A stretch of DNA of 56,104 bases from contig CAUYUJ010000112.1 in NCBI GenBank assembly GCA_963575745.1, positions 62,001 to 118,104 of the forward strand, in the 5' to 3' direction. Numbering within the stretch: the stretch's first letter is position 1; each line of letters begins with the position of its first letter. A program made the translations under genes and the position numbers. Under the pieces are notes generated by a model. The model was not told the origin of the DNA. It saw nothing but the letters and a program-made list of their open reading frames with translations, and searched no databases. Positions 23,428 to 49,539 of this stretch are shown one piece after another. Source of the DNA: Prorocentrum cordatum (lineage: Eukaryota).

Positions 23428-26010
23428 ATGCTCCACCACGCGCCTTTGGGTTGCGAGGAGCTCGGCATCAGCGTCCTGGCGACCAACATGCCAGAGAAAG
23501 TCTGGCGCAAGTTGGCTGCGTGGCACGGGCTCCCCGTGGGCGGCCGCGCCGGGCCACTCAGCGAGGCCCGCTGGCAGCTGCTCCGCGAGAAGGTGGCCAG
23601 CTTAGTCTGGTGGCACCCTGAAGGGGGAGTGGCACCCAGCCCGAGCTTCGAGGCGAGAGCTACCGAGGCAGACGCCAGATTGCGCAGCCACTGGCAACGG
23701 CTGGACCGTAGCAGCTCGCCCAAGCCGCCAGCTGGTTCTGCCCGGCGAGGTTCGCGCTCCCCGTCAGCCGAGGGCGGGCGCGCAGCTAGTTCCGAGGCAC
23801 CCGCATCGGGAGAGAGCCATCAGGAGGATGACGGCGGGGATATGATGGCATGCTACTTGGAGGAGAAGGCCCGGGGATCGAGCGACGCAGCGGCGGTGCA
23901 GAGTGCGGCCGCCGGCTTCGGCGAGGAGGCCCACCAGGTGCTCGCCGACCTCATCCGCTACGCCCAGCACCTCAGGCAGCAGACGACCGAGCCTGAGGAG
24001 CTCGCACGGCTCGATGGGCACATTGGCAGCTGGGAGGCGCTGCAGCAGGTGCCTTCACGGCCTCAGACCCCGGAGGCAGCGCCGAGCAGCCTGCAGGGTC
24101 TGCTCAAGCTCCCGCCCGAGCGCCACCGCTCGCAAGGGCCGCTGGCCACCCAGGCCGATAGCGCGCCCTTGATCGAGACGCGGCCGCCCCGCTCGCCAGC
24201 AGCGCCTGCACCGGCACTTGCACTTGGGCTGCGGGACACCGGCCCCCTGCCGGCCGCGGCTGGGCTCGCCCCCGTCGTTCGCCCACAGGCTCCAAACGTT
24301 GGGGCCCTATTCCGCTACGACCATCACATCAGCGACTTGGGTTTGCCCCCAGGTCTGACTACAGCTCCGGCGCGCTATGCCGCGGGAGCCCCAGAGGAAG
24401 GCGGAGGAAGCGACCCGTTTGGCCTCGTGCAGCCCGGAGCACCCTTGGATGCGAACACCGCACGGATGTTGCACGCCCTGGAGGGGGTCGCTAGCGCCCG
24501 CCAAGGCGACAAGGCGGCCCAGCGCGGGACAGTGGCGGCATTGGGAAGAGCGGAGGAGTTGGACGTCTACTTGGCGCGCGGGTGCGGCCAGCTGACGGTG
24601 GAGGTCTGCGACGAGGTCCTTGGGCGCGAGCTGTTCTATGCTCTGCGCCGGACCTGCGAGCAGAACAAGGCCCTGATGCTCGCGGTCGAAGCGCCCACGA
24701 CGGTGTCCAATCGGATCGCGATGGCCTGCGCCTCGCTCAGCTTCGGCGGCAGCAGCCTGGACAACCTGGCTCCGTGGTCTGCCTCAGCGGCGGACTTCCC
24801 GACATGCCAGACGGTCGCGTTCGACAAGTACAGCGCGCCGCACGACGCCAAGCTGGAGCCCAGGCCCAGGGCGCCAGTGGTCTTTGACCAGTGGAAGCGA
24901 CAGGCCTAGAACATGACCAAGTTCTTCGGGCTCGTCTTCGGACGGGAGCACGTCAAAGAGCGTCTGGACTGCCTGGAGATCCTTGCGCGGGAGTGCGAGA
25001 AGGACGACCACGCCTTCCCGCCCAAGTTCGTATATGAACTATGGGAGGAGCTGTGGTCGACCTGGTGCGAGCGCCTCCGAGAGAAGAAGCGAGGCCTCCT
25101 GCGCGTGCTGCAGACGGACAACCCCCGGAAGGAGGACCTCAAGATGGTGGCCTTCGCTCCCAAGGCGGATGGCCGCCCGGCGTTCGTCTTCCCCAACGTC
25201 TTTGACCTAGAGTCCCCCACGGGCTACTACCAAGAGGTCGTGCGCCCTCGCCAGCAGCGCTACCTGCAGACCGTCCTCAACGACTCGATGCACGGGGTGC
25301 GCGGCGTCCCGGGCAAGGCAGGAGAAGTCGGAGAAAGGGGGCGAACCGGCTGCTGAGCTGCAAGATCAGCGAGCAGGAGCAGCGCCCAAGAGGAAGCCCA
25401 CCGGCCGAAAGCCACCTCAGCGCGCGCCGCCTACCCCGCTGGCAAGCGGCTGAACGCACAGGAGATCAAGCTCTCCGTCCGGCACGCGCCCTGCGACAAG
25501 CAGGGCAAGCCGCTTTGCTGGGACAACTCGACCTGGATCGGCTGCAAGAAGGGCGCTCATGGGTGCTCGCATTCACACGAGCTCATCAAGGGCCTGAAGG
25601 ATGTGCACTGGACCGTGCAGTGCCAGCTGCTCAGGCGAGGCGGGCCCCGCAACGCCGCCAAGATCGACCCAGCTTCGGTCAATGGGAGGATCGCGCAGCT
25701 GCGGGCCCAAGCCAAGACAGAAGCGGACAGCAAGCGGGCAGCAGGCGCGGGGGCGACGGAGAACCAGCCGACCAAGACGGGCTGGGCACCACCCGACGAG
25801 TACGCCGAGGTTCAGTGCACCGAGCTGGAGTCCGAGCTCCGCGAGGCTGCCCAGGGACCCGACGCCACCTGGCTGGAGGACCCGCGCGCTGACAGCCCCG
25901 CCCTGACTGGGGCGAGCGTCTGCACAGACGCGGGGGCCTTGGCCCAGCAGAAGCTGCTCGTTGCTGTCCAGGAGAGCGGAGTGCTCGACCCCTGTGAGCC
26001 ACGCCAGTGA
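23428..26010 (+). pseudogene. Gag-like region of the retroelement polyprotein with CCCH zinc finger
   Basis: One frame throughout with stops at 24907 and 25354; C-x8-C-x6-C-x3-H (CWDNSTWIGCKKGAHGCSHSH) at 25516-25578. Confidence 0.7.
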
Positions 26011-26149
26011 CTACCTACGGTCACATGTCTTGGCCCGCCTTGCCTGTGCCCGTGGGCGCGGGGAAAAGCTCTCAGTCGAGCAGGTACTCCTTGAGGCAAC
26101 GCGCCACGGGGGCCCCACCTTGGCTGCCGAGGCTAGCGAGCTCCTGGAC

Positions 26150-26900
26150 CGCATCGGGGCGAAAGCCGGCAACCTGGGGGCCGACCCAGACGTCATCATC
26201 ACCCCAGTGCGGTGGAACGCGGAGAAGTCGGTGGGCCAGGGTTCCGTCACCGTGCAGGGCCAGACTTGGCATTACCTTGACTACCAGGACCAGCTGCCCC
26301 TCGACGAGTGCATCGCGAAGCGTCTGCATGTGCCCACCGGAGTTTCGGAAGAACGCCAACGTCTCCCACTCCATCTGGCGGCAGCCAAGCTTTGGGTGCA
26401 GCTCGAGGCACCACCTGACGCCCAGCAGGTCAAGGACTTGGCCCTCGAGATCCGCAGGGACCTCTTGGAGAAGGCGACCGGCGCTGCTGCGGGCCTCGCT
26501 GACGCCCCACCCTGGATATCTCCCAGGGAGGCCGAGGTCCGGATGCACATCCACGACGCGGTGCACCGCGACCACGACAAGGATTTCAGGTGTGTCGCCC
26601 TTTTCCCGTGCGAGGCGCTGGACGAAGTGGTGGTCAGAGTCTGGCGGGCAGATCACTGGGGTCATTTGGATATTGACACAGTCCTTCCAGCGGGGGAACC
26701 CAAGCAGGAGTGCCACGTGATCACCCATCGCGGGCACATGCGTGTCCTTCACCCTCCGTCCGGCGCCGAGGGCCGACGGGTGGCCGACGAGCTGATTCGC
26801 ACCTGGGCCACGAGCGGGAAGGACCTCAAGGAGCTCCCCACCATGGGCTGGGAGACATACCTCGCTTCCGAGGAGGAGGGCAGCCCGGTGGTGTCCAGCA
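26150..26900 (+). pseudogene. Putative papain/OTU-like cysteine protease domain (Cys codon mutated)
   Basis: EERQ[R]LPLHLAAA (CGT at 26360, one transition from TGT) and HVITHRGHMRVL (His at 26735); inference only. Confidence 0.3.
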
Positions 26901-27059
26901 AACCCCCACCGTGCCAACACTGCAGGGCACGTGCAGCACAGCAGCAGCAGCGTGGGAGAGCCGCCGGCGGCGCACCCGCCGTGGTCGAGCTCCCCACCGA
27001 GGTGGCCTGCCCAGACTTTAAGGACCTGGCGCCTTTGCGCTCTCGGCCCGCCTTCGCAT

Positions 27060-28215
27060 GGGGGCTCAGGACGCGGGAGATCTTCGCCGGCACAGGGCGC
27101 TGGACACAGGCCATGAAGAACGCGGGCATCGCCACCAGCGATCCGTCGAGTACTACGGGCAGCCAGGACCCCAGGCCGCAGTTCGACATCCGCGACCCGC
27201 TAGTGCGCGAGCGCCTGTACCAGGAGTTCAGTGCGCCTCCAGGCCCGGACGAAGCCAATGTGCTACAGTTCGCTCCTCCCTGCGTGAGCCACTGCCCCTG
27301 GCAGTTGGCAGCAGGAGGGGCGAGCACCTTCGAGTGCCCAGATGGGACTGGTGAGCGTCAAGTCGAGATCGATGGCAACGTGTTCGGGGAGTTCGCGTGC
27401 ATAGGGGCAAAGCGGGGCTACGAGGCAGGACGAGAGTTTCTCATCGAGTCCTCAGCACGGGGCGGCAGGTACCCCAAGCTTTGGGATCGACCCTGCATGA
27501 GAGCTCTAGTGCACGCGACTGGGGCCCGGGTCCTCGCCATGGACATGTGCGAGTGGGGACTCGGACCCCCGGACGAGCCCCAGTATCGGTACCAGAAGCG
27601 AACCTGGTGGCTGGTATCACTCGGGCTCTACCCTTACGCTCTGATCTTGGCCAGGCGGTGCTCGGGCAAGCACGCGCACCGCACGTTAGAGGGCGGCCTG
27701 CCGCACGACTTGACGGACGCCCAGGTGTAAGCCTACAACCTCGACGCACGCACGCGGCTCAGCAAGGCCGAGGCAAGCGAGCTGATCAACCTCAGCACCA
27801 AGTTGGGTGAGGCCAGCGGGTGCTATGGCCTCGACAAGGACGGCGTCACAGTCAGGCTGTCCCCGGACGACAAGCTGCTCCGCGTGAACCAGCTCATCGC
27901 GCGGGCCGCCCCAGACAACTTCCACTGGGCGCGGGTGGACTTCCGCACCAAGCGGCACTACTCCGCTCTGTCCGAGAACCAGTGGGCCCTCTACTTCGGA
28001 AAGACCCCCGAGGGCGAGCTCCGCTTCACCATCAGCACGCAAGCCCCGCCCAACATGGAGGGTGGAGGGCGCGTCCCCAGCGGCACCCCCCAGCTCAGTG
28101 CTGCAGTGAAGGGGGAGCTGGGAAGCGCCGGCTTCGGGCTGGGGCTGCGGGGCATGCGGAGGACCCAGCACGCGGGGCAGTATGCGCCGCGGCTGTGCGC
28201 TGCCTGGGCAGTCGT
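27060..28215 (+). pseudogene. C5 cytosine DNA methyltransferase domain 1
   Basis: Motif I EIFAGTG (27077), IV FAPPC (27269-27283), VI LIE, VIII-like DMCEWG..YQKRTW, X-like RTQHAGQYAPRLCAAWA; in-frame TAA at 27728. Confidence 0.85.
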
Positions 28216-29005
28216 GCTGAAAGCAGCGGCTGCAGGCACCGCTCCCGAGCAGCTGGAACAGCAGATTGCGGCGATGGACGCCGAGGCGCGGGCTTTGGAG
28301 GAGAAGTTGGAAAGCAAGGTGGCGCGGGCCGAGCGTTTTGACGCCCTGGAACAAGACCCCCCTCCTTCATCGCGCCCGTCAGCCTGTGCGGCAGAGGGCG
28401 CCGCGACCGAGGGCGGGACCATCAGCGAGCATGGCGAGAAGAGCGGCAGCTTGAGGAGGAGCGCCATCACTGGTAAAGCAGAGGAGGATCGGAACAGGTG
28501 CAGTTGCAGCTACGACGACAGCTGGCTTGAGGCCCCCCTCAGCTGCTGCGGCGTCTCGGACTGCCTACCCCACCCGAAACTGAGAGGCTCAACGGAGGTC
28601 AGGGTTGACGAGAGCTCAAAGGGCCCCCGTGGGGGCGGTCGTTCAAAGGACGGCTGCCCGGAGAGAGACGTGGCGGAGGAGGACGGCGGGAGCTTACAGG
28701 GCGAACGCCAAGGTGAGGACGAGGTGGAGGTGGAGACCGGCGGTGAGCCGATCGTGATCGAGTGCGGTGGCGACGAAAAGCGGGGCGGCAAGCGGGGCGG
28801 CAAGCGAGGGGGCTGGAAGCGCAATAAAGCGCGCAAGCGTGAGGCGCGTGAAGCTGCCGCTCGAGGTGGAGGCGGACCTGGCGGAGATGGTGATGGTGAC
28901 GACGACGGGGGTGAGAGCCCCGACAAGGATGAGGAGGAGGAAGAGGAGAACCGCCGCCAGAAGAAGGCGAGGGAAGCCGAGAATGAAGCATCCCGAGCCA
29001 GCCCA

Positions 29006-29250
29006 GTGCGAGTCTTTGTCCCGCAGCAGGGCGACCAGTGGGTGCTGCTCAAGGGGGCCGTTCGAGGCAGGAGAGGTCAAAGCGAAGCTGAGGGTCTCAG
29101 ATGCGCTGTCCGGGTGCATCTTCGACGAGGACCAGCTGTACCTCTTCGAGTACACGGAGGACGAGGACACGGCAGGCGCACATGGGCCACCTCTCGACGA
29201 CGAGGAGTCGGTGCGCCCTGGAGAGAAGCTGCTGCTGTGGGCCACGCTGA
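29006..29250 (+). pseudogene. Putative ubiquitin-like domain
   Basis: After removing one G from the G-run near 29053-29057: VRVFVP..WVLL..VKAKLRVSDALSG..EDQLYLF..PLDDEESVRPGEKLLLW, which follows the beta-grasp pattern. Confidence 0.4.
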
Positions 29251-30899
29251 AGCCGCCGAAGGATTGGACCAGCTGGAGCCCCCGGTGGGATCGAGATCAG
29301 CAACCAGCACCTGGCGCCACAGCCCAAGCCGGCCAGCGGAGGGTCACAGCCAGGGTTGCTGACCGGGCTTCAGCCGCAGCGGCAGCTGCACGATCAGGCG
29401 GGGCCGCAGCAAGCTCAGCAGCCAGCAGCAGCCGCATGCCAGCACCGACGTTCAGCGAAGTGGCCGCAGCAGTAGGAGGCGAAAGGGCAAGCTCAGTCCC
29501 CCCGTCCAGCGGGGGCACTTCGAGGAGCTCAGGCGCCCTGAGACGAGTGGAGGAGCAGCTCGCCAAGGCCCAGGGGCGCCACGCCCGCCTAGCGGGCGAG
29601 GGCAGCGACCAGGAGCGGAGCGCCGCACGTGCAGTCGGGCAGCTGGAGGTCAGGCGCAACGAGGTACAGGCCCGCCGCGCCGCCCGACTCGAGCGCGAGG
29701 CGCGCCGGAAGGAGCGCGAGGACCAGAGGGCCATGAGTGCCCCCCCGAGGCCTCAGAGTCCGCAGGAGTTCCCAGGAGCCCCCCCTCCACCGGAGGCTGA
29801 GGGGGACCAAAGAGGCCACCTCCGATGAGGCAGGACGCAGGGCCACCGAGACGCACCCGGGGGTAGCCTGCCGCGGGGGGGTCCACAAGTGCAATGCAGC
29901 ACGGCGCTTCGTCAAGAACTTCAATGACGTACGGAGGGGCGGCAAGAGCAACGACCTCCAGCACGCGGATATCTTGTACCTGAACGGGATCGGGCAGAAC
30001 AGCGACGTGTTGATGCAAGAGTAGCCTGGGGCGGATCCGACGGATCCGACCCTGGCGCCAGAACCTCGCCAGCTCGGCGAGATCCTGGCGCGCTACGTGG
30101 AGGAGCACGAAGCGCTGAAGGTCAAGATGAAAAGCCTCGGCATCCCGCGGGACGAGCACGCCGGAGGAGGGATCCTGGGCCCCATATACGTCGAGACCGA
30201 GAAGACCTACATCGAGGAATACGAGGGCCAGGGCATTCCTAGCGCCCGCAGCCGCAGCCGCAGTCGGGGTGCGGGGACGGCCCCCCACGAGAGAGAGCGA
30301 GGTCCTCCGGAGGGGTGCACGATGGCTCAGAGTCGTCCGCCTCCGAGACGATGGCCCCCATTGCAAGAGGCAGACTGCGAGCGAGGTCGCCGCCGGACGA
30401 GAGCCGCGGGCGCAGTGCCGCCCCTGACCCAAGGGACCCAGGGCGTAGATGCGGAGGCCCCGAGGTGCCGCCGGCGCATGTCCGCCCGGGCGCGCACCAT
30501 GAGAGCAGAGCGGAGGCACGCCAGAGCGAGCGTCCAACAGCGCCGCCGGCTGCCTCTCGCCCTGGAGCCCCTGAGGCTAAGGAATACCTGGCTTGGTGCC
30601 TGGAGCGCGCAGGGTTCGCCCCGGAGCTGGTGAAGGAGGTGACGGACTTGGGGAATCGTCTGCTCCTCGCCGCGGGGAGCGTGGAAGCCGCCGCGGCGCG
30701 GCTTCACGAGGAGCGGGAGCGCGTCCTCGGGAATCCGCTCGGAGGGGTGCTCGACCCTGAGTTCGGCGCGGCCCTGGAAGAGGACCACAAGCAGTACCTC
30801 CGCGAGATGGCCACCAAGGGTGTCCCCGTCCGGAGGCAGCGGCCCAGGCGGCGCACCGTGGCCAAGCCCCACGCCTCAGCACGGGACCACGCCCTGGAG

Positions 30900-31720
30900 A
30901 TGTACGCCAAGGCCTGGAAGGACACCTCCTACGGCGCCGTGCTTTGGGCCACCCCAGAGGCCGAGGACGCTCTGTCTGCATCGGAGCTCATCGAGAGCCC
31001 GTCCGGGCGAGTACCCAAGATGCTGCCCGACCGCGCGGTGAGCAGCGAAGGGCGCCCTATACACGACATGCGCGCCGCCAACGGGGACTCGCCCAAGGAG
31101 CTGCGCCCGCCGGCTCTTCAACCGAAGCACGAGGCCCTCGTGCGCCTCTCCCTTTGGTGGTCAGCGCGCCACCCCGGGGTGCCGCAGGTGATAGCCAAGA
31201 GGGACGTCTCGAGGGCCTTCAAGTGGCACTGGGTGCGCGACGAGGACGTAGCCGAGTTGAGTTCGGCACCTCCCTCCCAGGCGAGGCTGTGGACATGGCC
31301 ACGCGCGTGATCATGATCCACTGCGTAATGGTCTTCGGGTGGTCGGGGTCCCCGGGCGAGTATACGGCGTTCGCCTGGAGCGCCAAGTGGGACCACGAGC
31401 GGCGCAGGCCGCCGGACCCCGCAGTCAACGACACGGTGCGCTGGTCGTCCAAGTGGTTGATGGACGACGGCGTCCTGGTCGAGCCGCTGGTCGGCCTCAG
31501 GCCCTGGCTCAGCGCAGCCGACTGCGACGCGAGCATGAGGCGTGTCTGGGGCAGCGAGGCGATCAACGTTGACAAGATGGCGGAGGAGGGTACCTTCCAG
31601 GCAGAGCAGTTGGTCTGGGGCCTCTATCTGGACGTTGACAAGCAGCGCTCGAGGCTCCCGGAGCCCAAATGCGTGAAGGCCGCCCACCTCCTGGCGATCA
31701 ACGAGCTGCACTATGGGTGC
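30900..31720 (+). pseudogene. Reverse transcriptase domain (DIRS type)
   Basis: SGRVPK..GRPIHDMR, KRDVSRAFK, MVFGWSGSPG, WLMDD, LVWGLYLD; frameshifted by a GAGTT duplication at 31254-31263. Confidence 0.93.
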
Positions 31721-32029
31721 CGCCGGGTTCCCATCAAGGTCGCCCAGGAGCTGAGGGGCTCCGCGCAGTTCTGGGTGGCCACGCAGCCGGCTATCAAGCC
31801 TGAGCTGCCGGTCATCGACCGCCTCCTTGGTGGCGGGCTCGGAGCAGCCTGGGCGGAGCCCAAAGGGAGCGCGGAGGAGGTTGCCCTCGCCTGGGACGAG
31901 TGGGATCAGACCCTCGAGCTGTTGCGAGTGCTCTTCGACGCGCCCGAAGCCTGGGCGCCCACCTTCGAAGCAAGCTTCATCTCCTGCTTGGGGCCGCGCG
32001 AGCGCCTAGCATTACCAGGTGCCACCGCC

Positions 32030-32460
32030 CGGGCGAGGTGGACGGGGGGAGATGCTACCACGACGACCATCGGCAGCATAGACTGGGGGCGCGCAGTGGC
32101 AGGCAGCAAGGCGGCGCCACCACACTATATGGCCGTGGATGCCGCCCCGCTCCTCCGCCAGCTGGAGGACGTGCTGAGCCACCCGGGGGCCGAGAAGGAC
32201 TGGGCTATAGCTATCGTCGAGCTGCTCGCATTCGTGGCCTTGGCCGCAGCGAGGGGCGACGAGTGGCAGGGCGAGCTTGTCTTCTACGTCACTGACAACA
32301 TGAACGTGCGGTCGTGGATTTCCAAGAGGCGTCCCAAGCATCCGCTTGCGAGGCACCTCGCCCGCCTCATTCAGCGCTTGGAAGCCTGCCACGGGTTCAG
32401 CACCACCGCACTGTACATCCGCACCTACCACAACGACATCGCGGACTGGCTGTCGCGAGA
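32030..32460 (+). CDS. RNase H domain of the retroelement polyprotein
   Basis: GGDAT, IVELLA, VTDNMNV and HNDIADWLSR give the D-E-D-D residues. Confidence 0.92.
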
Positions 32461-32649
32461 GGAGGCCAAGAAGGTCCACTCCGAGCTCCTGCGCAAGGGG
32501 TGGACCCGTATCGAACCGCCCGAGGCGTGGGGGAAGATGCTGGCGGAGGCGAAGGAGCATCTCTTGCGGCTGCCTGGGGAGGAAGGGCCCATTGCGGAGT
32601 CTGCGCTCCGACATCGGGCGCTGAGGACCCCCGCAGCGGTACCGCGCAA

Positions 32650-33490
32650 CCTGGCCCTCAAGGGGTGCCGAGGGCTGGAGCTCGGGAGCCCGCTGGGCAC
32701 CTACGGGCGCGCCTGGGAACGGCTAGGTGGGGAGCTGACGACGAGCAACTCAACGGAGGTGGACTGGATCATGTGTACCTTGACCCTGGACCCGAAGGGT
32801 TTCGAGGTCGAGAAGCTGGTGTCCGCGGTCACCCGAGCAAGGCCGCAGATCGTCGTGGTCGATGCCCCCGGCAAGCTCGACCTGGCCCGCGTCGTCAAAG
32901 CGCCGCGCAGGATGGGATATCGCACGTACGACCTGGAGGTCGTCTGCACCCACTACGGCGACATGACGGCCCGGGCTCGAAGCCTGCTCGTAGCGGGCCG
33001 AGGACCAGCAGGCGCTAGCCTGGCGAGCGTGCGCACGCCGCCGGCGCGCCGCTGTCCACACGGGGTGAAGCACGCGCTGAAGGACAAGCTCAGCGAAGGC
33101 GGCCACCACTGGCTCGACGACGAGGGGAACGTCACGTGGGACCCAGCAGCCCGGAGCGGCTCCGACGCCATGCTGCCCAAGGGAATCGGCCACATCAAGC
33201 TCGCCGACACGAAGCACCTGGTCTGCTCGATCGACGGCCCGACCGGCACGGTTCGCTGGCCCACAGAGGGCCCGGGCGGACCGGGAGGGACGTTGGCCCA
33301 CATCCCGGGGAGCTGCGACGGGCGCATCCGAGCGCTGTCGCCCGAGGAAATCTGGATCGTGCAAGGGGGCGACGAGGCGGCTTGGGTGGCGAGGCGGGCC
33401 CAGGGCGACGCCGTGGATGCCCAGATGCGGGAAGCTGCGAGGTCCTTGCCGCCAGAGACGGCGAGAGCTGTCCTGGGCGCCGTCGCGGAC
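32650..33490 (+). CDS. Second, catalytically degenerate C5-MTase-like domain
   Basis: RPQIVVVDAP (VI-like), MGYRTYDLEVVCTHYGDMTARARSLLVAGR (VIII-like), IRALSPEEIWIVQG (IX-like), QMREAARSLPP (X-like); no PC dyad. Confidence 0.65.
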
Positions 33491-33949
33491 GCGACGTTGC
33501 AGACCACCCAGCGGGCAGGCGGCTGCCGCGACCCCGCGGAGTCCGCCGCCTGGGAGACGACCCGGAGGTGGCTCAGGGCTTGGGCGCAGGGCGAGCTCCG
33601 CGTGAAGGCCGAGGCCGCAGGGGACGACCGACACGCGGGAGTGCTAAGCGACGATGTTCACAAAGCGAGGCGCAAGAGCCAAGGCGTCCGCTTCAGAGCG
33701 ATCGAGGAGGACCTCGTGCGGGGGCCCGAGCCCCCACCTGACGCCAAGGAGGTGGACCTGAATGCGGTTGTCGACACGCCCAAGAGGCGACGGAGGCGGA
33801 GCCCCAACAGGGGCAAGAAGGTGGAGACCCAGAGGCTAGTCAAGCCGATCGCGCTGGGCCAAGCTCGGGCTGCCATCGCCTGGCCGGACCGCCCGACCCT
33901 GGGAGGGGAGGACTACGGCAGGTGGATCGAGGAGCAGAAGCGCGAGGCG

Positions 33950-34172
33950 CTGATGCTGCGGCTGTCTGAGGGGACCCGCGCCGGCTATGAGACCGGCTGG
34001 CGACAGTGGCAGGGCTTCAGGTCAGCCCAGGGCGAGTCGCCCTGGCTCGAGGGGCGCGACCGCGAGGAGCGCTACGCCAACGAGGAAGCGTTGCTGGGAT
34101 TCGTCGTTGTGTTGGCCAAGGTGCTGAAGCGCACAGAGGGTACGATCAAACAGAAGTTGTTTGTTGTGCGTT
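33950..34172 (+). pseudogene. Tyrosine recombinase N-terminal (core-binding) part
   Basis: LSEGTRAGYETGWRQW..GTIKQKLFVVR rejoins FAHLVVGYPDP at 47133 after removing the insertion. Confidence 0.88.
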
Positions 34173-34604
34173 CCCAGAGCATCCGAACAGAATAAAAAGA
34201 AGGAGCTGATCGTTAGAAAGAAGAAAACGAAAAAAAAGAAGAGTAGATGTACGACGTGTCAATATGTCATAAAAAAAGAAGTTTATCATATAATAAGAAT
34301 AACAAGAAATAAATGAAATAATTCATTTTGAAATGAATTAATTCATTTCCAAATGAATAATTCAGAACATGCATGTTATACTATGTACACAATATTAGAG
34401 CTATTGCATGTCAAGTGTATATGTTGTCAATGTGTGCGAGTGTGTATATATGGTGCGTGCGCCTAGATGATATATAGGTTTGGGCGGATTGAGGTATTAT
34501 GGGGAACTCACATAGCCTGGTGGATCCACTGGATTCGGCGGATATATAAGGGGTGGGGGGGGATGCGCTGTTGCACCCGAGCCACGCAGGCCCAAGCATT
34601 ACAT

Positions 34605-37600
34605 ATGGTGCGCGCGAAGTGTTGGACCGCCGAGGATGCGCCCGAGTCCTCGGCAGCTGAAGTTTTGGGGCCGTGCGTGCAGTTAGCCCTCCCCCACATC
34701 ATCAGCACGAAGCTCTACCCCAGCAACGACATGAAAACTGGCATTGACCAGGATTTCGTTTGGAAATCTACCCCTCCTCCTCCTCCTCCTCCTCCTCCTC
34801 CTCCTCCCCCTCCTCCTCCTCCTCCTCCTCCCCCTCCCATTCTTCCTCCTCATCCTCGCTCCACCTACTTCTCCTCTCCTTTCCTTCTCCACCTCTTCCT
34901 CGGATATTCCTCATCCTTCCCGCCCTCCCCCCCCCTCCTCAAGGACTACTTGGCGCAGGCGGCCCCCGCGCTCAAGGCGCTCTTCGAGGTAGACCCTCGC
35001 GGGGCCTATTTCACGCAGGACGACGTCCGCGCGGGCTGCGCGAAGGTGTTGCAGGACACCGGCCTCTAAGATGGAAAAGGAATGGTGAGGAGGAGGAGAA
35101 GGAACAGGAGAAACGAGCAGGAGGAGGAGGAGGAGGAGGAGGAGGAGGAGGAGGAGGAGGTAGGGAGAGCGAGAGGAGGGAGTGGAGGAGGAGGAGGAGG
35201 AGGAGGAAAAGGAGGAGGAGGGAGGAGGAGGAAGAGGAGGAGGAAGAGAGGGAGGGGGAGGTAGGGAGAGGAGGAGGATGAGGATGAGGAGGAGGGGGGG
35301 GGGAAACGAAACTCCAAGGGGATCGTCCGACTCTGGATTTTCGTAGGTTTGGGGGCGTTTGATTTTCTAGAACTCCGACCTCGATTAGTGTTTTTTACGC
35401 TCCTGCCTGAGAACCCCGAGATGAAGCATGCCCTTCAGAAGTTCGCGTTTATGGGGAACTTCTCGGAGTCGGAGGCGGTGGAGAGAATCAGCTACAGCTT
35501 CAGGGTGATGTGCTCCCACGTGCGGATCAAATACGACATCACGCAGGCCGCGAATGTCGCATTTGTTCCCGTCTCCCTCCTCCTATTCCACCCCATGTCG
35601 TCCATCGTCCTCTTCCTGCTCCTGTTCCGCCTCCAGGCGTCAGCTGGCAGGGGCGCGGAGTGCGCGATCCCAGACGAACTGGCCGACATCTTTACGGCGA
35701 CCTGCCGCGTTGTCTTCCTCTTCCTGCTCCTCGTCCTTCCTCCTGCTGTTCGGCCTCCTTCTCCTCCTCTCCTCCTCCGTCGGCATCCTCCTTCTCCTCC
35801 TCCTCCTCATCCGCCTCCTCCTCCTCCTCCTCCTCCTCCTCCTCCTCCTCCTCCTCCTCCCCCTCGGGGCTGCGGAGGTCTCTCCTCCTCCTTCTCCTTC
35901 TCCTCCTCCTCCTCCTTATCCTCGGGGTTCGCATCCGTTCGAATTAAGTGCTCTCCGCCACAGGTGATCCACAGGCACCACGCAGGCAAGTTCCCCCTGG
36001 GCAGCCCCATCTCGGACCACGGGGGCGCGGGCAGGCGGAACCAGAGGCAATCGCGAGGGAACAAAGAGGAGGGGGATGGAGAGGAGGAGGAGGAGGAGGA
36101 GGTCCTAGTATGAGGAGAAGGAGGGGGAGGAGGAGGAGGAGGAGGAGGAGGAGGAGGAGGAGGAGGAGGAGGAGGACGAGGACGAGGACGAGGGGGAGGA
36201 AGAGGAGGAAGAGGAGGAAGAGGAGGAGAATGAGGAGGAAGAAGACGGGGGCTCGCAAAGCCCTTCCTACTCGCGTCCCCTTATAGGTGTAATCTCGCTC
36301 ACGCCACTCCATCATTCCTTGAGAAATGATGGAGCTGTGATGAGGAGAGGTTGCACTTGATGGAACGCGTTCAAGCTTTACGCTGATCAAGCGAGGCCTG
36401 AGAAGCCGAACCCATTCGCCGCGTTCCGTGATCCTGTGCCAGCTGCTGCTGAGGTTGAGGACACCCCCGCGGCCGAGGAGGCCGAGGCCGAGACCGCCGC
36501 CGACCCCGACGAAGCGATCGTGGTGGCGCGCTGGTTTGACGGCATGAAGGCCAACTCTTCTTCGATCCTCCTCCTCCTCCTCATTCTCCTCCGTCTCCTC
36601 CTCCTCCTCCTCCTCCTCCTCCTCCACCTCATTCGAATACCATCGTCAAATTAGCTCAGGCGACCACCTTATGGGCGAACGGCACGTTGACCCACGCGAC
36701 GCTCGCCCGAGGAGAGAGAGGCTGCGTTGTGGCCGAACACTCGGATGGGGTAAAAGTGGAGCTCGATATTTCCAACGATTTGCTGAATCCAGATGGTGCG
36801 GCACGGAAGTTGCGCGTGCCAGTGAGCAAAGCACGACAGCCCATGAAACGCCCAGCAGCTTGCAAGCGCCCAGCAGCAGCTGCACCTGCAGCCCCTGCAC
36901 TCAAGCGACCTGCTGCAGCTGTGGCCCCCAAACTTGTCAAGAAGCCAGATCCCGTGGAGGCGGCCCTGGATCCCGACGATGAATTCGAGAACTCCGAGGC
37001 CGCAGAGGAATGCCCAGATGAGTTCGAGAACTCGGAGCCCGCAGAGGAATGGCCCGATGAGGAGCAGGAGCCCGCAGAAGATCCCGTAGAAGAGTCACAA
37101 GAGCCCGAAGAAGCCCAGGAGGGCGATGACGGCCCTGTACCGGATGGCCCCACCCCCGTCTTGAAAATCGCCAACGGCCACAATGGGGCCTTGTGCATCT
37201 TCCTGGTGACTTCAGGCAAGGACAAGTGCCAGATCCTACAGGTCAATCCAACTGGTGCGTTTGCTAACGGCATCCAGGACCCTATGTTATAACAGTCGCC
37301 TTCCCAAACCATTTCCCCCTCAAACGTGTCAAGAATCCTCTTCGAACGTGCTAGCCTTCCTAGAATGTCACGCTTCCCCCCTCGTTTCTACCTGCCTCCA
37401 TCCCGTCGCTCGCACGCAGGACAAGGTGGAGGAGATTATGCAGTGCTTGGAGATGCACGTGGCAGATTTGCCGAAGGGGCGCGTGAAGGACTGTCACATT
37501 AAACTGCAGTCCCCCTCCTCCTCCTCCTCCTCCTCCTCCTCCTCCTCCTCCTCCTCCTCCTCCCATGGCACTCCTCCTCCTCCTCCTCCTCCTCCTCCTC

Positions 37601-37800
37601 CTCCTCCTCCTCCTCCTCCTCCTCCTCCCCTCCTCGTTCTCCTCCCCTCGCTGCTCCCTCTGGAGCTCAGATGCTCCTCCTGATCCTCCTCCTGATCCTC
37701 CTCCTCCTCCACCCCCGTCGACGAGCCCCAGGACCTCCCTGTCGCCGTGATCCGTCACCTGAGGACGCAGGCCCAGGAGCATCGCCAGCTGTATACCAGC
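34605..37800 (+). CDS. Multi-exon accessory gene A of the EnSpm-like element, function unknown
   Basis: Exons MVRAKCW..IDQ / DYLAQAAPAL.. / MKHALQKF..RIKYD / ..WFDGMK / ATTLWANG..MKRPAA..GIQ / DKVEEIM are separated by GA/GC-AG introns; 3' end approximate. Confidence 0.6.
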
Positions 37801-37999
37801 GATGAGTAGATTGATTAATCCAGGCGAAAGTTTTCAAGGTCCCAGATCCACCTCGGGGCCTGCCAACAAATCGTTTCGGTAAACCATCGGGCATGTCGCG
37901 ATTAGATCGCCGTGAAGATGTTTCTGCGCTGGTCGAGCCGCGCTGTGAAAACAACAGCCGCCCCCTCCTCCTCCTCAATCATTGCAGGGGTCGGGCTCC

Positions 38000-39846
38000 A
38001 TGGGGGCGTGTGATATCTCGGCTCGGGATCTCTGCATTATGGCAGCGTTCGGTTTACATGTAGGCCGCTGGGTCGAAGCCGTGTTCCCCCCAGGTTGGAT
38101 ACCGCCCTGGGTCGGTCCCGTGGATCCGCGTGCAAACGATGCCCCTGTGTCGTGGCCCAGCGGCACGTTTTCGATCCCCTCTGATGCCATGTCTCTTGAC
38201 ACCACGAGCCATGAAGTGGAACCTGCTCCTCCAATGCCAGATGGTGATATCGATGCAGACGACGCCTCTTGAGGCCACGCTCACGGCGAGGATAAGGGGG
38301 AGGAAGGATCGACGACGCTCCCAGGAGGGGGGTTGGAGGGGGGGGAGAGGGAGGGAGAGGAGGGGGAGGAGGAAGCAAGAGGAAGGAGAACCCCCCTCGC
38401 CCCTCCCTCTTCTCCTCCTCATCCTCCTCCTCCTCCCCACCTCCTCTTCATATGTTCCTCCTCCTCCTCCCCCTCCTCCACCTCCTCCTCCTCCCCCCTC
38501 CCAGTCGGCGAAGCTGACCGCGTGTCGCAGCCGCGACTCGATGCTCGCGTCCGCGGATCGCGATCCCGACTTGCGCCAGCGCGAGGTTTTCTTCCTCCTC
38601 CTCCTCCTCGTCCTCCTCTTCCTCCCCTCCTCCCATTCTCCCTCCTCCTCCTTCTCCTTCTCCTCCTCCTCCTCCTCCTCATCCTCCCCATCCTCATCTT
38701 CCGCCTCCTCCTCCTTCTCCAACGCGCGTTCATTCTCCTGCTCCGTGTGCCTCCTCATCCGCCTCCTCGCCCCAGCCGTGCTCCCTCTTCATCCCCGAGC
38801 TCCTCGCACTCCTCCCCCCCTCTTCCCCCTATCTCCTCCATCCTCCTCCTTCTCCCCCTCCTCCTCCTCCTCCTCCTCCTCCTCCTCCTCCTCCTAGGGC
38901 CTCCCCCCCGAGAGCCTAGCCCATGGGCTCCCCCCCAGAGAGCCGACTGGCCTCCTAGGGCCTCCCCCCCCCCCAGACTCCTAGAGCCCATGGACTCCTA
39001 GAGCCTGGCCCATGGACCCCCCCCCCCAGAGAGCCGACCATGGCCCAAGGAGGGCCTCCTCCTAGGGCCCCCCCCCCCCCAGAGAGCCGACTGGCAGCCA
39101 TGGACGAGACCGCCGAGTTGTCAGCTGGCGAGTTGCAGGCCCTGCGGGGCATCGTGGCAGCGCAGCACGGGGAGGTCGCGGGCTTGCTGGGCTCGCAGGC
39201 AGTTATCACCCCCCTCCTCCTCCCCCTCCAGTGAGCACCCCTATCTCCGCCCGCCTTGAGGTGCGCAATGCCGAGATGCTCCCCGAGGAGATCGGGATGA
39301 CCCCCGAGCAGAGGTTGCAGTTCAGGGACGCTCTCTACGAACTTGGTGATGATTTGCGAAATGGCCCGCCTACTGTATCTGGCCTTCGTATTGGATGCCG
39401 CCAGGAAATGTTACGTCGACCCCTCTTCTCCAGCTCCTGCCTCATCCTACCTCGTCCTTCTCCTCCTCCCCCTCCTCCCCCTCCTCCTCATATTCCTCCT
39501 TCTCCCTCCTCCTCTTCCTCCCCCTTCTCCTCCTCATGCGCAGGATATGACGCCAGAACAAGTTGAGTTCGAGGCGAACCGTCTCGAGGTCATCAGGAAC
39601 TCCCGAGAAAACCCCATCGAGGTCGAAGAGAGCCCGACTGCTGGTGCGACCGAGCCCGACGGCGAACGCAACCATCAGAGCCCGCTTCCTACAACACCTG
39701 AGTTTCAAGGCCCCGACCGATGCCCTAGTGATTCTTGGGACGAGAAGGGTCAGAGCCCCTACGTGTCTGACATCGAGTGCGATAACGCCGACCTCGAGGA
39801 GCCCGATAGCAAGCGCAGCCGCAAAGACGAGGCCACCGATCGATGA
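38000..39846 (+). CDS. Multi-exon accessory gene B, function unknown
   Basis: Protein-like blocks at about 38000-38270, 39040-39200, 39260-39415 and 39544-39846 between (CCT)n tracts; boundaries approximate. Confidence 0.4.
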
Positions 39847-41064
39847 ACATATCTCACACTCCCTCGGTGAAATACACGATTAGGAGGATCGGAAAGGGAG
39901 GGGGGAGGAGGGAGGAGAGAGGAGGGATGGGGGAGGGGTAAGGCGGGAGGCAGGTTACATGCACCTCTATAGGCCTCACAAGAACCAGCTTCACCAGATC
40001 TTCATGGTACACCTTCTTCTAGTCGCAGCCAGAGCCTGGACCGATCGAGCTAGCCAACTCAACCCTCCATCAAGGTATGCTGGATGCAATGTTGATTGCA
40101 AAGCGATTGCAATCATCATGGTTTCAGCATCCTCGTCGATCGAACTTCTATTGCACCCCCCCTCGAGGACCACGAGGACATCGCGAGCCTGATCAGCGCG
40201 GGCCGTTTGGCGCCGAGGGCTGTCGAGAGCCCCAGCCCTGAGCGCGAGAACCCCTCCCTCGCGTTCAGGTCGAGGTGCAGCCCGCGGCGCAATTCTCAGG
40301 CCTAGGACGCATGCTATCAAAGGTTGGCGGCGCCAGGCGCCAAGAAAAACTGTCGTCTGGAAAGCTCGTGGTGCCGCACTTGAGCACGCCCTAGGGGGGC
40401 GACAGGGGGCCCGAGGCTTCCCTGGAGCTTCCCCGAAGCTTCGAAGGGGGGAAGGTCGAGACATTTTTTCCCGGCATTTCAAAATGAAAGGAAATCTGAA
40501 AATCTTATGTTTATATATATATATATGGTTTCCTTGGGGTTTCGATGTTTTCCCGGCATTTGTGAAAATGAAAGGAAGTGAGTTTTCATTGATTTTTTAT
40601 ATGTTTTCAATGAAATAATTCATTTTAAAATGAAATATTTCATTTCAAAATGAAATAATTCATTTTAAAATGAAATATTTTCTGTTTTTCATATATATAT
40701 ATATATGTTTTCAGTGAAATATTTCATTTTTCCCGGCATTTTTCCCGGCATTTGGAATCTCGGTGAGCCAGCTCAGCCTTTCAACCGGCACCAGGGGCCC
40801 CGATCTCTCGAGCTCGAGCCTAGCACAACGCACCAGAAGGGTGAGGACGAGGAGGAGGAGGGCAAGGGAGGACAGGGCGAGGAGGAGGAGGCGGACGAGG
40901 AGGAGGAAGGACAATAACTAGGAGGAGAAGGAGGGGTGTGGAGGAGGAGGGCGAGCAGGGAGAAGGAGGATTTTAATAGGTGACGTCGTTCGAACCGCAG
41001 TATCCGCGGCTCGAGGCTTGAGCGTCATCGATTCGGAGACAGGTGGAGATCCCTAGGCCGTGCA

Positions 41065-43121: not shown

Positions 43122-43607
43122 ATCGATCGACATCGAGATTTCGAAGCCCTGAACAAGTTTTGCTGTTCGGTCACCGCGGGGCCCTGGCTTCTGGGTAACG
43201 GGTTTGCGACTGCACGGTGCAGTCATCGCCATCTTCAGGGGTGCCCGCACAACAGTTTCTGCTTAATCCTACTCGCCCTTCCAACTTCATAAATTCCAGC
43301 TCGTCCTCTCCGTCTGCCTCGCTGCTGCTGCCATTTGTGCCCAAAGCCTAATATCTTTTGCCGCACATGGGGAAACGCGGCACTTTACGAGAACGCCTCG
43401 GATTTTCAGACACCCATGGGCCCCCAGCGAAGCTGCCTAGGCTATGGGAACCGCCAGGCAGCCATGGGACCCCAGCGGCGAAACAGAAGAGGTCCACTGG
43501 GGCCAAATCCAAACCAACGACTCCCACCCACCCGAAACGAATCTGGATCACCCATCCCTTTTTATCCCTGGACCATTGACACCCCCCCCCCTCGATAGTT
43601 TGGGTGC

Positions 43608-44339
43608 ATGGGGCGACCCATTAGGTCTCACACCGAGGAGTTCTTAGGCGGCCTGTTTAACCGTGGCAAGGTTCATGCCACCACTGTTCTACAAGGCGCT
43701 CGCGCTGCTGCGCTTGACAATCCTGATGTACAGTCTCAGTTTTTAGGCAACGCTGCGAGGGTTGACAAGTTCTCTGCGAACATGCAGAATGCACATCGGC
43801 ATTCGGAGGGGCTAACATATGTTACCTCACACCACCCCGACCTCCTGGGCCCAAGCAAATCTCGTAGACTTGTCAACCCTCGCTCTCAGGGACTTGATTC
43901 GGCGCTTGGGAAAGTCCGCTACTATGCCTCAGACCTACTTGGCAGATATGCCATTTTGGGACAATCTGGCGGGGAGGCAGTTCACGGGAAAGGTCAGTTT
44001 CTTGCTCCCCCACGAAATGCTGAGCAACATCGTACCCCCTGGTAGAGAGGAGTCTTTTGCAACGTTTGCCCAAGATAGACTTGGGATGGAATCCACACTG
44101 GCAGATGCTATTCGGGACCTGGGCATTAGCGTTAACGACGGCCCCCCTATCGCTGGAATCGGCATATGGGGGGACTCCGCCCCCTATGCGAACAGGGACA
44201 GCATCTACCTGATGCTTTGGAACTGCCTATCTGGACCCGTGCACAATCGTTTCTGGATGTGCGCTTTCCCCAAGAACTACGTCTGCAGATGCGGCTGCCA
44301 AGGGCGTTGCACTTTTAAGGCGCTGCTCCTGGGGCGTCC

Positions 44340-44385
<46 letters not shown>

Positions 44386-44406
44386 TCCCCTCTCTCTCTC
44401 TCTATC

Positions 44407-44501
<95 letters not shown>

Positions 44502-49376: not shown

Positions 49377-49539
49377 TAGGATGTTTGGTAAAACTGATGG
49401 ATCTCCCCGTTTCCAGAACTGGCGCGGGCTTCCACTTGCGGTCCCCTTGCTCCTGCCCTTGCCTCCTTGCTTGCCCTTTCCCGCTTCTTCCCCTCTCTCC
49501 GCCGCTCGGCGGCCCAAGCCTTTTCGAAGGCCAAGCTGG
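49377..49539 (+). repeat. Split direct repeat A2
   Basis: Copy of 5261-5423, directly abutting B1. Confidence 0.95.

What the first reader, a model, noticed from the sequence alone, without database searches (positions are those of the whole stretch)
27060..33490. Two different C5-DNA methyltransferase domains in one retrotransposon, one active-type and one catalytically dead
Seen: MTase 1 upstream of RT keeps FAGTG and PPC. MTase 2, between RNase H and YR, keeps motif VI/VIII/IX/X-like spacing of HhaI/Dcm-style enzymes but lacks FxGxG and PC, yet its frame is unbroken. Known: DNMT-carrying retrotransposons, including DIRS, are reported in Symbiodiniaceae. Inference: two independent captures; the dead copy may be kept as a DNA-binding or targeting module, or as a DNMT3L-like partner, while MTase 1 methylates the cDNA.
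Basis: partly seen in the sequence, partly recalled or inferred. Interest (0 to 1): 0.8.

Follow-up and report, generated by a model that had tools for sequence, protein, structure and literature searches.

The report
Retrotransposon with live-type and dead methyltransferase
A decayed copy of a DIRS-like retrotransposon carries two cytosine-methyltransferase-derived domains, one keeping the catalytic motifs and one a conserved enzyme-dead version, a new twist on a known theme.

Summary
Domain 2 (32600-33560, between RNase H and the tyrosine recombinase) models at pLDDT 85.7. It superposes on M.HhaI at Z 25.8, rmsd 2.9 Å, 272 of 327 residues.

The whole family of domain 2 (104 representative hits) lacks:
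- FxGxG;
- the motif II-III strands;
- the 13-residue Pro-Cys catalytic loop;
- ENV.

It keeps D-x-P, (K/R)-x-R, the motif IX residues and the TRD. An intact 1691-aa relative shows the same dead motifs.

Domain 1 (27035-~28230, upstream ORF) keeps FAGTG, PPC and the motif VI Glu. It matches a canonical C5-MTase profile at 95% probability, against 0.2-0.4% for controls. Its fold was not modelled, and Pfam sees neither domain.

This copy is dead: domain 1 has a TAA stop and a frameshifted patch, the RT a 5-nt insertion, and the recombinase a 12.9-kb insertion.

The element spans 5262-49817. It has A…B-A-B repeats and sits in a satellite without a target duplication.

Still untested: independent capture of the two domains, a DNMT3L-like partnership, and the Symbiodiniaceae host. 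I file it as a new variant of a known kind.

The parts
5262..5423 (+). Left terminal repeat A1, directly after a 108-bp satellite (4822-5261)
   Evidence: 95.7% identical to 49378-49539.
25907..27034 (+). N-terminal, Cys/His-rich part of the upstream ORF; function unknown
   Evidence: Translation. It is conserved in relatives P0112 and P0113 and in the sequence of P0153 (read by eye). Pfam finds nothing.
27035..28230 (+). MT1: a divergent C5-MTase-type domain. Motif I FAGTG at 27077, motif IV PPC at 27269, motif VI E-S-S at 27440, motif X-like stretch at 28160-28207, with a ~150-aa insert between motifs VIII and X
   Evidence: hhalign against canonical C5 enzymes: 95.0%, E 4.1e-8, with controls at 0.2-0.4%. 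A relative, P0113, hits the C5 family phrog_363 weakly at 6.5e-4. The Atlas's nearest cluster is auto-named C5-MTase, score 0.96.
27141..27164 (+). Frameshifted patch in MT1 of this copy: 1 nt and 11 nt are missing relative to other copies
   Evidence: read-laying table 4 and the loose ends. The sequence was read directly and aligned to P0112 and P0113.
27728..27730 (+). In-frame TAA stop inside MT1 of this copy
   Evidence: The relative P0114 has Glu here.
28231..30242 (+). Low-complexity acidic/basic spacer with frame changes between the upstream ORF and Pol
   Evidence: Translations. Indel variants among copies are seen at 29052 and 29809.
30243..32599 (+). Pol: reverse transcriptase (MDDGVL at 31460) and RNase H (YVTDNMN at 32285). 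This copy has a 5-nt insertion at 31254 that shifts the frame
   Evidence: tblastn with P0068, P0032 and P0029. P0120 reads through the site. Contigs of all 4 runs laid lack the 5 nt. Sequence.
32600..33560 (+). MT2: a complete C5-MTase fold including the TRD. It lacks the G-loop, the motif II-III strands, the Pro-Cys catalytic loop and ENV; a conserved pseudoenzyme
   Evidence: Model at pLDDT 85.7. M.HhaI at Z 25.8 with 272 residues aligned. Foldseek. hhalign 95.0%. Family statistics.
33561..34170 (+). Linker and N-terminal (core-binding) part of the tyrosine recombinase, cut off by an insertion
   Evidence: P0007 residues 2-379 match 33038-34171. Junction.
34171..47115 (.). Nested insertion of about 12.9 kb with lower GC (0.57), splitting the recombinase. 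The ends are approximate to a few bases
   Evidence: tblastn of P0007, P0029 and P0032 resumes at 47126. Junctions, composition. No informative Pfam hit in its ORFs.
47116..48748 (+). Catalytic part and C-terminal extension of the tyrosine recombinase. Where relatives read H-S-L-R-I-G-G, this copy reads R-S-P-H-I-G-G
   Evidence: The relative P0007 carries PF00589 in the precomputed table.
49178..49817 (+). Right terminal repeats: B1 (49178-49377), A2 (49378-49617) and B2 (49618-49817). The same satellite then resumes in phase
   Evidence: B1 and B2 are 97.5% identical, and A2 matches A1 at 95.7%. Satellite position 49817 aligns with 4937, 5045 and 5153, so it continues from 5261.

Best explanation
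The window holds one decayed, 44.6-kb copy (5262-49817, swollen by nested insertions) of a DIRS-like tyrosine-recombinase retrotransposon. Its family encodes two unrelated C5-cytosine-methyltransferase-derived domains.

MT1 lies in the ORF upstream of Pol. It is a very divergent C5-MTase that keeps the SAM loop (FxGxG), the Pro-Cys nucleophile and the motif VI Glu. Inference: in intact copies it is a working cytosine methyltransferase acting on the element's cDNA or neighbouring DNA.

MT2 is fused between RNase H and the recombinase in the Pol polyprotein. It is a full HhaI-type fold. It has lost everything needed to bind SAM and to attack C5, but keeps the DNA-facing motifs (the motif VI acid as D-x-P, motif VIII K/R-x-R, motif IX, the TRD).

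Shown: MT2 is a pseudoenzyme conserved across a deep family.

Inferred: it is kept as a SAM-independent nucleic-acid-binding or base-recognising module. This would serve Pol and the recombinase (substrate handling or target choice), at the place where classical DIRS1 elements carry their own MT domain of unknown function.
For: - Fold of MT2: (Z 25.8 to M.HhaI; all 50 listed rows of each search are C5-MTases).
- Profile match of both domains to 35 canonical C5 enzymes, with negative controls.
- Dead motifs are family-wide: PC at the motif IV place in 0 of 42, EN[VIL] in 0 of 56. There is a 13-column gap at the catalytic loop and a gap of about 39 columns at motifs II-III.
- Conserved DNA-side residues: P90 72/72; D88 52/62, plus 5 Glu; G120 62/65; K/R125 57/70; K/R127 66/71; R244 69/75; E250 68/78; W252 70/80; G256 87/89.
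- Breadth: 104 representative clusters at E<=1e-3, two of them spurious repeat proteins. One carries an Amphidinium carterae label.
- Intact long ORFs carry the same dead MT2: P0120 at 1691 aa and P0158 at 1832 aa.
- MT1 keeps its motifs in the relatives that cover them: P0112, P0113, P0153 and P0118.
- MT1 and MT2 also lie together in a divergent relative. Gene model P0040 holds an MT1 piece at 38% identity, plus RNase H and MT2.
- DIRS-type ends and insertion without duplication.
- Literature (passages seen). DIRS1 Pol is RT-RH-MT with MT function unknown (PMC3266345). The DIRS1 MT is argued to be an inactive N6A-type domain that may only bind nucleic acid (PMC4738411).
Against: - No binding, SAM-affinity or methylation data exist; the function is inference only.
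- MT2 evolves faster than the enzymatic domains. Median pairwise identity is 23.6% (43 pairs), against 35.2% for RNase H (26 pairs) and about 41% for the recombinase (3 pairs). That is close to the 22.3% of the aligned linker (12 pairs). Against the close relative P0120 the figures are 66% for MT2 and 80-81% for RT and RNase H. Constraint is therefore weak.
- dN/dS could not be computed, because no DNA of relatives could be fetched.
- The MT1 fold was not modelled (cap reached). Pfam, the PDB profile search and two other hhalign templates saw nothing for MT1.
- MT1 lacks a clear QxRxR. One relative has Lys for the motif VI Glu (P0115) and one has FAGYA for FxGxG (P0117).
- Co-occurrence of MT1 and MT2 beyond this window rests on a single gene model.
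Confidence: 0.55

Rival explanations
1. MT2 is a DNMT3L-like or METTL14-like regulatory partner. It would dimerise with MT1 and stimulate or aim it, so that the element encodes a writer plus pseudo-writer pair.
For: An inactive C5 fold sits beside a motif-bearing C5 domain in one element. Both are present in a divergent relative (P0040). The precedents DNMT3A/3L and METTL3/14 are recalled; the METTL14 case is also in PMC4738411 (passage).
Against: The two domains lie in different ORFs or far apart. MT2 keeps the DNA-side motifs and a full TRD, which, as I recall, DNMT3L lacks. Long MT2-bearing ORFs such as P0068 and P0158 contain no MT1. No test of an interface could be run.
Confidence: 0.15
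2. MT2 is a functionless relic of a once-active DNMT, drifting neutrally inside the polyprotein.
For: It is the fastest-evolving named domain, with identity close to that of the linker. All catalytic motifs are gone.
Against: It is kept in frame in ORFs of 1000-1800 aa across lineages that share only 17-39% identity. Some columns are invariant or nearly so (P90 72/72, G256 87/89). The co-variation signal is strong enough for a pLDDT 85.7 model.
Confidence: 0.08
3. MT2 is the ordinary Dam-like (N6-adenine) MT domain of DIRS1 elements, merely diverged.
For: It holds the same place in Pol, after RNase H (PMC3266345, passage). It has a conserved D-x-P that recalls (D/N)PP(Y/F).
Against: All 50 listed structural matches in each are C5-MTases. 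The match runs from motif I to the C-terminal motifs IX-X and through the TRD. No Pfam Dam family matched at E<=1, nor at E<=0.01 in 30 relatives. The aromatic residue after D-x-P is not conserved.
Confidence: 0.02
4. MT1 is also not an active enzyme. It would be a second binding module or a non-methyltransferase, so the family encodes no working DNMT.
For: - Pfam, the PDB profile search and a single-template hhalign fail for MT1.
- It has no QxRxR.
- Motif VI is E-S-S, not ENV.
- An odd C-S-G-x-H-x-H stretch follows motif VIII.
- The published SymbioLINE DNMT failed to methylate in yeast (PMC5890265, discussion passage).
Against: FxGxG, Pro-Cys and the motif VI Glu are kept in register in most relatives that cover them.
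Confidence: 0.2

Closest known systems
SymbioDIRS-Dnmt3 retrotransposons (de Mendoza et al. 2018, PMC5890265)
   Same: A DIRS-like element with A-coding-B-A-B repeats, a tyrosine recombinase, a divergent RT that Pfam misses, and a cytosine-MTase-type domain in the coding region. The paper describes both DNMT positions (before RT, and after RNase H) in two separate families.
   Different: The published DNMT is PF00145-detectable, Dnmt3-like, keeps the key residues, and occurs once per element. Here neither domain reaches Pfam, both positions are filled in one element, and the downstream one is a dead HhaI-type fold with a large TRD. By a PF00145 screen this family would count among the paper's 'DIRS lacking DNMTs'. 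I could not read the paper's main supplementary PDF (too large), so degenerate DNMTs may be shown there.
MT domain of classical DIRS1 elements (Pol = RT-RH-MT)
   Same: An MTase-fold domain directly after RNase H, of unknown function. Iyer et al. 2015 (PMC4738411, passage) argue that it is catalytically inactive and perhaps only binds nucleic acid.
   Different: That domain is of the N6-adenine type (Dam-like or PCIF1-like), which is unrelated in motif order. A 2026 preprint (10.64898/2026.05.21.726589, passages) argues that its active-site triplet is conserved. MT2 is a C5-type fold.
M.HhaI and related bacterial or phage C5-MTases
   Same: The whole fold, including the TRD: Z 25.8 with 272 of 327 residues aligned. 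Motif order VI-VIII-TRD-IX-X is the same.
   Different: MT2 has no G-loop, no motif II-III strands, no catalytic loop and no ENV. About 15% identity.
DNMT3L (catalytically dead C5-MTase paralogue)
   Same: A C5-MTase fold without catalytic residues, kept by selection beside an active enzyme.
   Different: MT2 is part of a transposon polyprotein and has a full TRD. No interaction with an active partner has been shown.

Membership tests
C5 DNA methyltransferase (PF00145): MT1 | Homology to the catalytic domain | tested here: met
   hhalign against 35 canonical enzymes gives 95.0% (E 4.1e-8), or 90.8% with a complete relative placed first. Controls give 0.2-0.4%. The fold itself was not modelled.
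C5 DNA methyltransferase (PF00145): MT1 | Pfam gathering score | tested here: not met
   No hit at E<=1 for the window ORF. No hit at E<=10 for 4 relatives.
C5 DNA methyltransferase (PF00145): MT1 | Motif I FxGxG and motif IV Pro-Cys | tested here: met
   FAGTG at 27077 and PPC at 27269, aligned to the canonical motifs. P0117 is an exception, with FAGYA.
C5 DNA methyltransferase (PF00145): MT1 | Motif VI ENV and motif VIII QxRxR | tested here: inconclusive
   The Glu is kept, as E-S-S here and E-N-P in P0117 and P0118. No QxRxR was found, only K-R.
C5 DNA methyltransferase (PF00145): MT1 | Methyl transfer to cytosine C5 | not testable with these tools
   This needs an assay. This copy is in any case broken.
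C5 DNA methyltransferase (PF00145): MT2 | Two-lobed C5-MTase fold with TRD | tested here: met
C5 DNA methyltransferase (PF00145): MT2 | FxGxG, Pro-Cys loop and ENV | tested here: not met
   PC at the motif IV place in 0 of 42, EN[VIL] in 0 of 56. The loop is a 13-column gap and motifs II-III a gap of about 39 columns. No canonical FxGxG in the 13 family rows that cover motif I, read by eye.
C5 DNA methyltransferase (PF00145): MT2 | Pfam gathering score | tested here: not met
   No PF00145 hit in the window ORF or in 30 relatives.
DIRS-like tyrosine-recombinase retrotransposon | RT plus RNase H plus tyrosine recombinase, with no DDE integrase | tested here: met
   Colinear tblastn matches to relatives. 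PF00589 is on record for P0007 and is a weak hit in P0029. No integrase or protease family appears in any ORF scanned. Pfam itself does not see the RT.
DIRS-like tyrosine-recombinase retrotransposon | Split direct repeats (A…B-A-B) and no target-site duplication | tested here: met
   A1 at 5262-5423; B1-A2-B2 at 49178-49817; the satellite resumes in phase.
DIRS1 group proper | Dam-like N6A MT domain after RNase H | tested here: not met
   The domain at that place is a C5 fold. No Dam family appears in Pfam scans.
SymbioDIRS-Dnmt3 | PF00145-detectable Dnmt3-type DNMT with conserved key residues | tested here: not met
   In MT2's ranking the best matches are HhaI, MpeI, HaeIII and DNMT1, and no DNMT3 entry is among the 50 rows listed. 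That last point is inconclusive on its own.
DNMT3L-like pseudo-methyltransferase partner | Binds and regulates an active C5-MTase | not testable with these tools

The most novel reading that the evidence does not exclude
DIRS-type retrotransposons need an MTase-fold, catalysis-free nucleic-acid clamp between RNase H and the recombinase. Different lineages would have filled that slot with non-homologous folds: N6A-type in DIRS1, and an HhaI-type C5 fold in this algal or dinoflagellate family. Here the dead clamp would additionally work with a cis-encoded, Pfam-invisible cytosine methyltransferase (MT1). That would make a transposon-borne writer and pseudo-writer pair, analogous to DNMT3A/3L.
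Probability: 0.2. Interest if true: 0.8.

Novelty: new variant of a known kind. Interest (0 to 1): 0.6.

Why it matters
DNMT-bearing retrotransposons are known, and a possibly inactive MT domain in DIRS1 is known. What is new here has three parts:
1. A C5-fold pseudoenzyme is conserved in at least a hundred sequence clusters at the DIRS MT slot.
2. A second C5-type domain with intact catalytic motifs lies in the same element.
3. Both are invisible to PF00145.

Elements scored as 'DIRS without DNMT' in PF00145-based surveys may therefore still carry methyltransferase-derived modules. That would change counts of DNMT capture events. It also offers a natural system for asking what a dead DNA methyltransferase does for a mobile element.

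In my searches I found no paper describing such a domain. 'SymbioDIRS' occurs in only 2 papers of the library.

Tried and rejected
Searches and models that gave nothing:
- The single-sequence fold of MT2 was useless (pLDDT 36.9).
- phmmer of both domains against PDB sequences gave only chance hits.
- hmmsearch of the MT2 family against the PDB gave only E>=0.5 hits, to SGNH thioesterases, which I take as chance.
- hmmsearch of the MT1 family against the PDB gave 0 hits.
- hhalign of MT1 against one phage C5-MTase, and against 81 members of that atypical subfamily, gave no signal. Only a canonical 35-sequence template worked.
- hhalign of MT1 against MT2 showed no relation.
- tblastn of MT2 against phages: the best two hits are annotated C5 methylases, but at E 0.4 and 4.

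Attempts to fetch related DNA:
- Metagenome scans with MT1 returned nothing.
- With P0120 they returned one 1.9-kb recombinase fragment, L137.
- The viral contig scan returned nothing.

- No whole genome is held for this window.
- Complex prediction for MT1 with MT2 was not available.
- Earlier findings of this scan: nothing.

Sequencing runs:
- No RNA holder was listed, so nothing can be said on expression.
- Read laying printed only 40 of 1156 variant places. Those shown are mostly places where the laid contigs all or nearly all read another letter than this copy (likely private changes). No dN/dS-like test was possible from them.

Other checks:
- CpG observed/expected is 0.84-1.04 in the element, with no clear depletion.
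- Pfam on 41 other ORFs of the window gave nothing informative.

Full report
**What is there.** The + strand from about 23.4 kb onward is GC-rich (0.66-0.71). It reads as a chain of long open frames.
- An upstream ORF runs from 25907 to 29359. Its second half holds the first methyltransferase-like domain (MT1).
- A low-complexity spacer follows.
- Then comes a Pol frame with reverse transcriptase, RNase H and the second methyltransferase-like domain (MT2, 32600-33560).
- The Pol frame ends with the beginning of a tyrosine recombinase.

Pfam recognises none of this, even at E<=1. That fits the published remark that the RTs of such elements escape the Pfam models (PMC5890265, methods passage).

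**The element as a whole.** tblastn with relatives shows that the recombinase does not end at 34170. It resumes at 47126 in the same frame. A stretch of about 12.9 kb with lower GC has been inserted into it.

The true ends came from self-comparison:
- A 108-bp satellite runs up to 5261.
- Repeat A1 (5262-5423) follows it.
- At the far end lie B1 (49178-49377), A2 (49378-49617, whose first 162 bp are 95.7% identical to A1) and B2 (49618-49817, 97.5% identical to B1).
- The same satellite resumes at 49817, in phase with 5261.

This is the A-internal-B-A-B arrangement of DIRS-like elements, as drawn for SymbioDIRS-Dnmt3 (PMC5890265, legend of Fig. 1e). No target duplication is visible, as expected for a recombinase-made insertion. 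The element is 44.6 kb long only because other sequences are nested inside it.

**This copy is dead.**
- MT1 carries a TAA stop at 27728, where relative P0114 has Glu.
- MT1 also has a patch at 27141-27164 that is read out of frame. One base and eleven bases are missing relative to other copies.
- The RT has a 5-nt insertion at 31254. Contigs from all 4 runs laid lack it.
- The recombinase is split by the insertion. Its H-x-x-R box reads R-S-P-H where relatives read H-S-L-R.

The unbroken frame over MT2 is therefore no evidence by itself. The family is highly repeated: one run gave 1401 contig pieces on the 7.3-kb stretch laid.

**MT2 is a complete but dead C5-methyltransferase.**

A search of 1.84 billion representative proteins with MT2 found 104 hits at E<=1e-3, 28 of them at E<=1e-10. 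Two (P0027, P0072) are spurious repeat proteins, which I dropped. None of the 30 hits I scanned with Pfam carries PF00145.

Structure:
- Folded alone, MT2 gave nothing (pLDDT 36.9).
- Folded with the 104-row alignment it gave pLDDT 85.7 and pTM 0.83.
- In Foldseek against the PDB all 50 listed matches are C5-MTases, led by M.HhaI at E 1.2e-12 and TM 0.64-0.69.
- VIA-align gives Z 25.8, rmsd 2.9 Å and 272 of 327 HhaI residues aligned. M.MpeI (Z 21.6), M.HaeIII (19.8), DNMT1, DIM2 and ZMET2 follow.
- Among 50 listed viral predicted structures, 29 of the 32 named rows are cytosine methyltransferases, including the best match.

Profile comparison against 35 canonical PF00145 enzymes taken from bacterial genomes gives 95.0% probability, E 4e-8, over 264 columns from motif I to motif X. 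Reading that alignment:
- The G-loop F-x-G-x-G is G-S-P-L-G here.
- About 39 columns covering motifs II-III (strands 2 and 3, the ribose and adenine contacts) are absent.
- The 13-residue catalytic loop that starts with Pro-Cys is a gap.
- E-N-V is D-A-P.
- Q-x-R-x-R is T-A-R-A-R.
- Motif IX R-x-L-x-x-x-E is kept.
- G-N-A-V-P is A-R-S-L-P.

These losses hold across the family:
- Pro-Cys at the motif IV place in 0 of 42 sequences. One has a PC upstream of the strand.
- EN[VIL] in 0 of 56.

The retained positions are strongly conserved: P90 72/72; D88 52/62, with 5 Glu; G120 62/65; K/R125 57/70; K/R127 66/71; R244 69/75; L246 69/78; E250 68/78; W252 70/80; G256 87/89.

The closest long relative, P0120, is one intact ORF of 1691 aa with RT, RNase H, MT2 and recombinase. 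It has the same dead motifs. So does the 1832-aa P0158 from another branch.

**How constrained is MT2?** It is less constrained than the enzymes. In an alignment of ten long family members, median pairwise identities are:

| Region | Median identity | Pairs |
|---|---|---|
| MT2 | 23.6% | 43 |
| RNase H | 35.2% | 26 |
| Recombinase | 40.8% | 3 |
| RT | 36.7% | 2 |
| Aligned parts of the linker after MT2 | 22.3% | 12 |

Two near-identical pairs were left out of these medians. Against P0120 this copy shows 80% identity in RT, 81% in RNase H and 66% in MT2. This speaks for weak constraint, typical of a binding scaffold rather than an enzyme.

The in-frame retention, the invariant columns and the co-variation that supports the model speak against a neutral relic. 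A proper dN/dS test could not be run, because no DNA of relatives could be fetched.

**MT1 is a divergent C5-type domain with catalytic motifs.**

Few relatives were found: four fragments, a 281-aa member (P0153), and two long Pol proteins of another retroelement type. Those two (P0117, P0118) carry an MT1-like domain at their C-terminus.

Negative results:
- Pfam finds nothing.
- A PDB profile search finds nothing.
- Comparison with an atypical phage C5 enzyme and its subfamily finds nothing.

Positive results:
- Against the canonical 35-enzyme template, hhalign gives 95.0% (E 4.1e-8, 164 columns). Placing the complete P0118 domain first gives 90.8%.
- In those alignments FAGTG falls on FxGxG, D-I on motif III, PPC on PCQ, E-S-S on ENV, and the Gly of motif VIII is in register.
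- Reversed alignments and the RT-RNase H block score 0.2-0.4%.

Weaker leads agree. Relative P0113 hits phrog_363 at 6.5e-4, in register with a true C5 methylase that hits the same family at 2.7e-35. The protein atlas puts MT1 nearest a cluster auto-named C5-methyltransferase, score 0.96.

Against an active enzyme:
- There is no QxRxR.
- Motif VI is not ENV.
- An unusual C-S-G-x-H-x-H stretch follows motif VIII.

**Do the two belong together?** They lie on one strand inside one pair of element ends here. A gene model from a divergent relative (P0040) joins an MT1 piece that includes its Pro-Cys with RNase H and MT2. Identity to this copy is 38% in MT1 and 21-24% in MT2. That is thin support, but it points to an old association. 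The two domains are not detectably related to each other.

**Comparison with what is known.**
- SymbioDIRS-Dnmt3 elements carry one PF00145-detectable Dnmt3 domain with conserved key residues. It lies either before RT or after RNase H, in two separate families. The paper also reports 'DIRS lacking DNMTs' (PMC5890265, sections 6 and 7). The present family would fall in that last class in a PF00145 screen, yet both positions are occupied by C5-derived domains.
- Classical DIRS1 Pol is RT-RH-MT, with the MT of unknown function (PMC3266345, passages).
- That MT is of the N6-adenine type and has been argued to be inactive (PMC4738411, passage). A 2026 preprint argues that its active-site triplet is conserved (10.64898/2026.05.21.726589, passages).
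- MT2 thus repeats the theme of a probably non-catalytic MTase fold at this slot, but with a different, non-homologous fold.
- I found no paper describing this. The main supplementary PDF of PMC5890265 could not be read and may show degenerate DNMT domains.

**Host.** No genome is held for the window. The closest named relatives carry EukProt labels Pyramimonas sp. CCMP1952 (P0114 at 84% identity; also P0119 and P0013). A distant one is labelled Amphidinium carterae (P0068). Such transcriptome sets can be contaminated (recalled), so I leave the host open.

**Verdict.** The identity of both domains is well supported, MT2 very strongly and MT1 by profile only. The functional readings remain inference: DNA-binding or targeting module, DNMT3L-like partner, cDNA methylation by MT1. 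This is a new variant of a known kind, of moderate to good interest.

Noticed in passing
window 34171-47115: A nested insertion of about 12.9 kb, with lower GC (0.57), splits the recombinase gene. Its ends are A-rich. The flank GTGCGTT is nearly repeated as GTGGGTT at its right end, a possible short target duplication. No informative Pfam hit in its ORFs.
   Followed up: partly
window 4822-5261, 49817-53011, 54722-56104: Arrays of a 108-bp satellite. The DIRS-like element sits inside one array, and the satellite resumes in phase after it, so no target-site duplication is visible.
   Followed up: yes
window 8513-11228 and 16663-19700: Two long inverted arms (79-83% identical) that themselves hold tandem repeats. 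They flank a 5.4-kb centre with ORFs of about 410 aa on both strands. This is probably another nested mobile element inside the 5' part of the DIRS-like element. No Pfam hit.
   Followed up: no
window 25907-27034: The N-terminal part of the upstream ORF is rich in Cys and His. It is conserved in relatives P0112, P0113 and P0153, and no family was found for it.
   Followed up: no
proteins P0117 and P0118 (no window coordinates); they match window 27017-27709: A different retroelement Pol (YIDDH-type RT, RNase H) ends in an MT1-like domain with FPCGSFS and LENP. Its 90% clusters have 37 and 32 members, on contigs up to 1.9 Mb. The MT1-type module is therefore used by more than one retroelement class, and Pfam does not see it.
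   Followed up: partly
window about 27640-27670 (MT1, after motif VIII): A C-S-G-x-H-x-H stretch is conserved in the MT1 family and in P0117 and P0118. It may be a metal site and is not a feature of canonical C5-MTases.
   Followed up: no
window 48170-48748: After its catalytic part the recombinase has a long C-terminal extension, with hydrophobic stretches and a conserved end shared with P0007 and P0120. Purpose unknown.
   Followed up: no
whole window: GC is 0.55-0.70, and the closest named relatives carry a Pyramimonas sp. CCMP1952 label. The host may not be a Symbiodiniaceae.
   Followed up: partly
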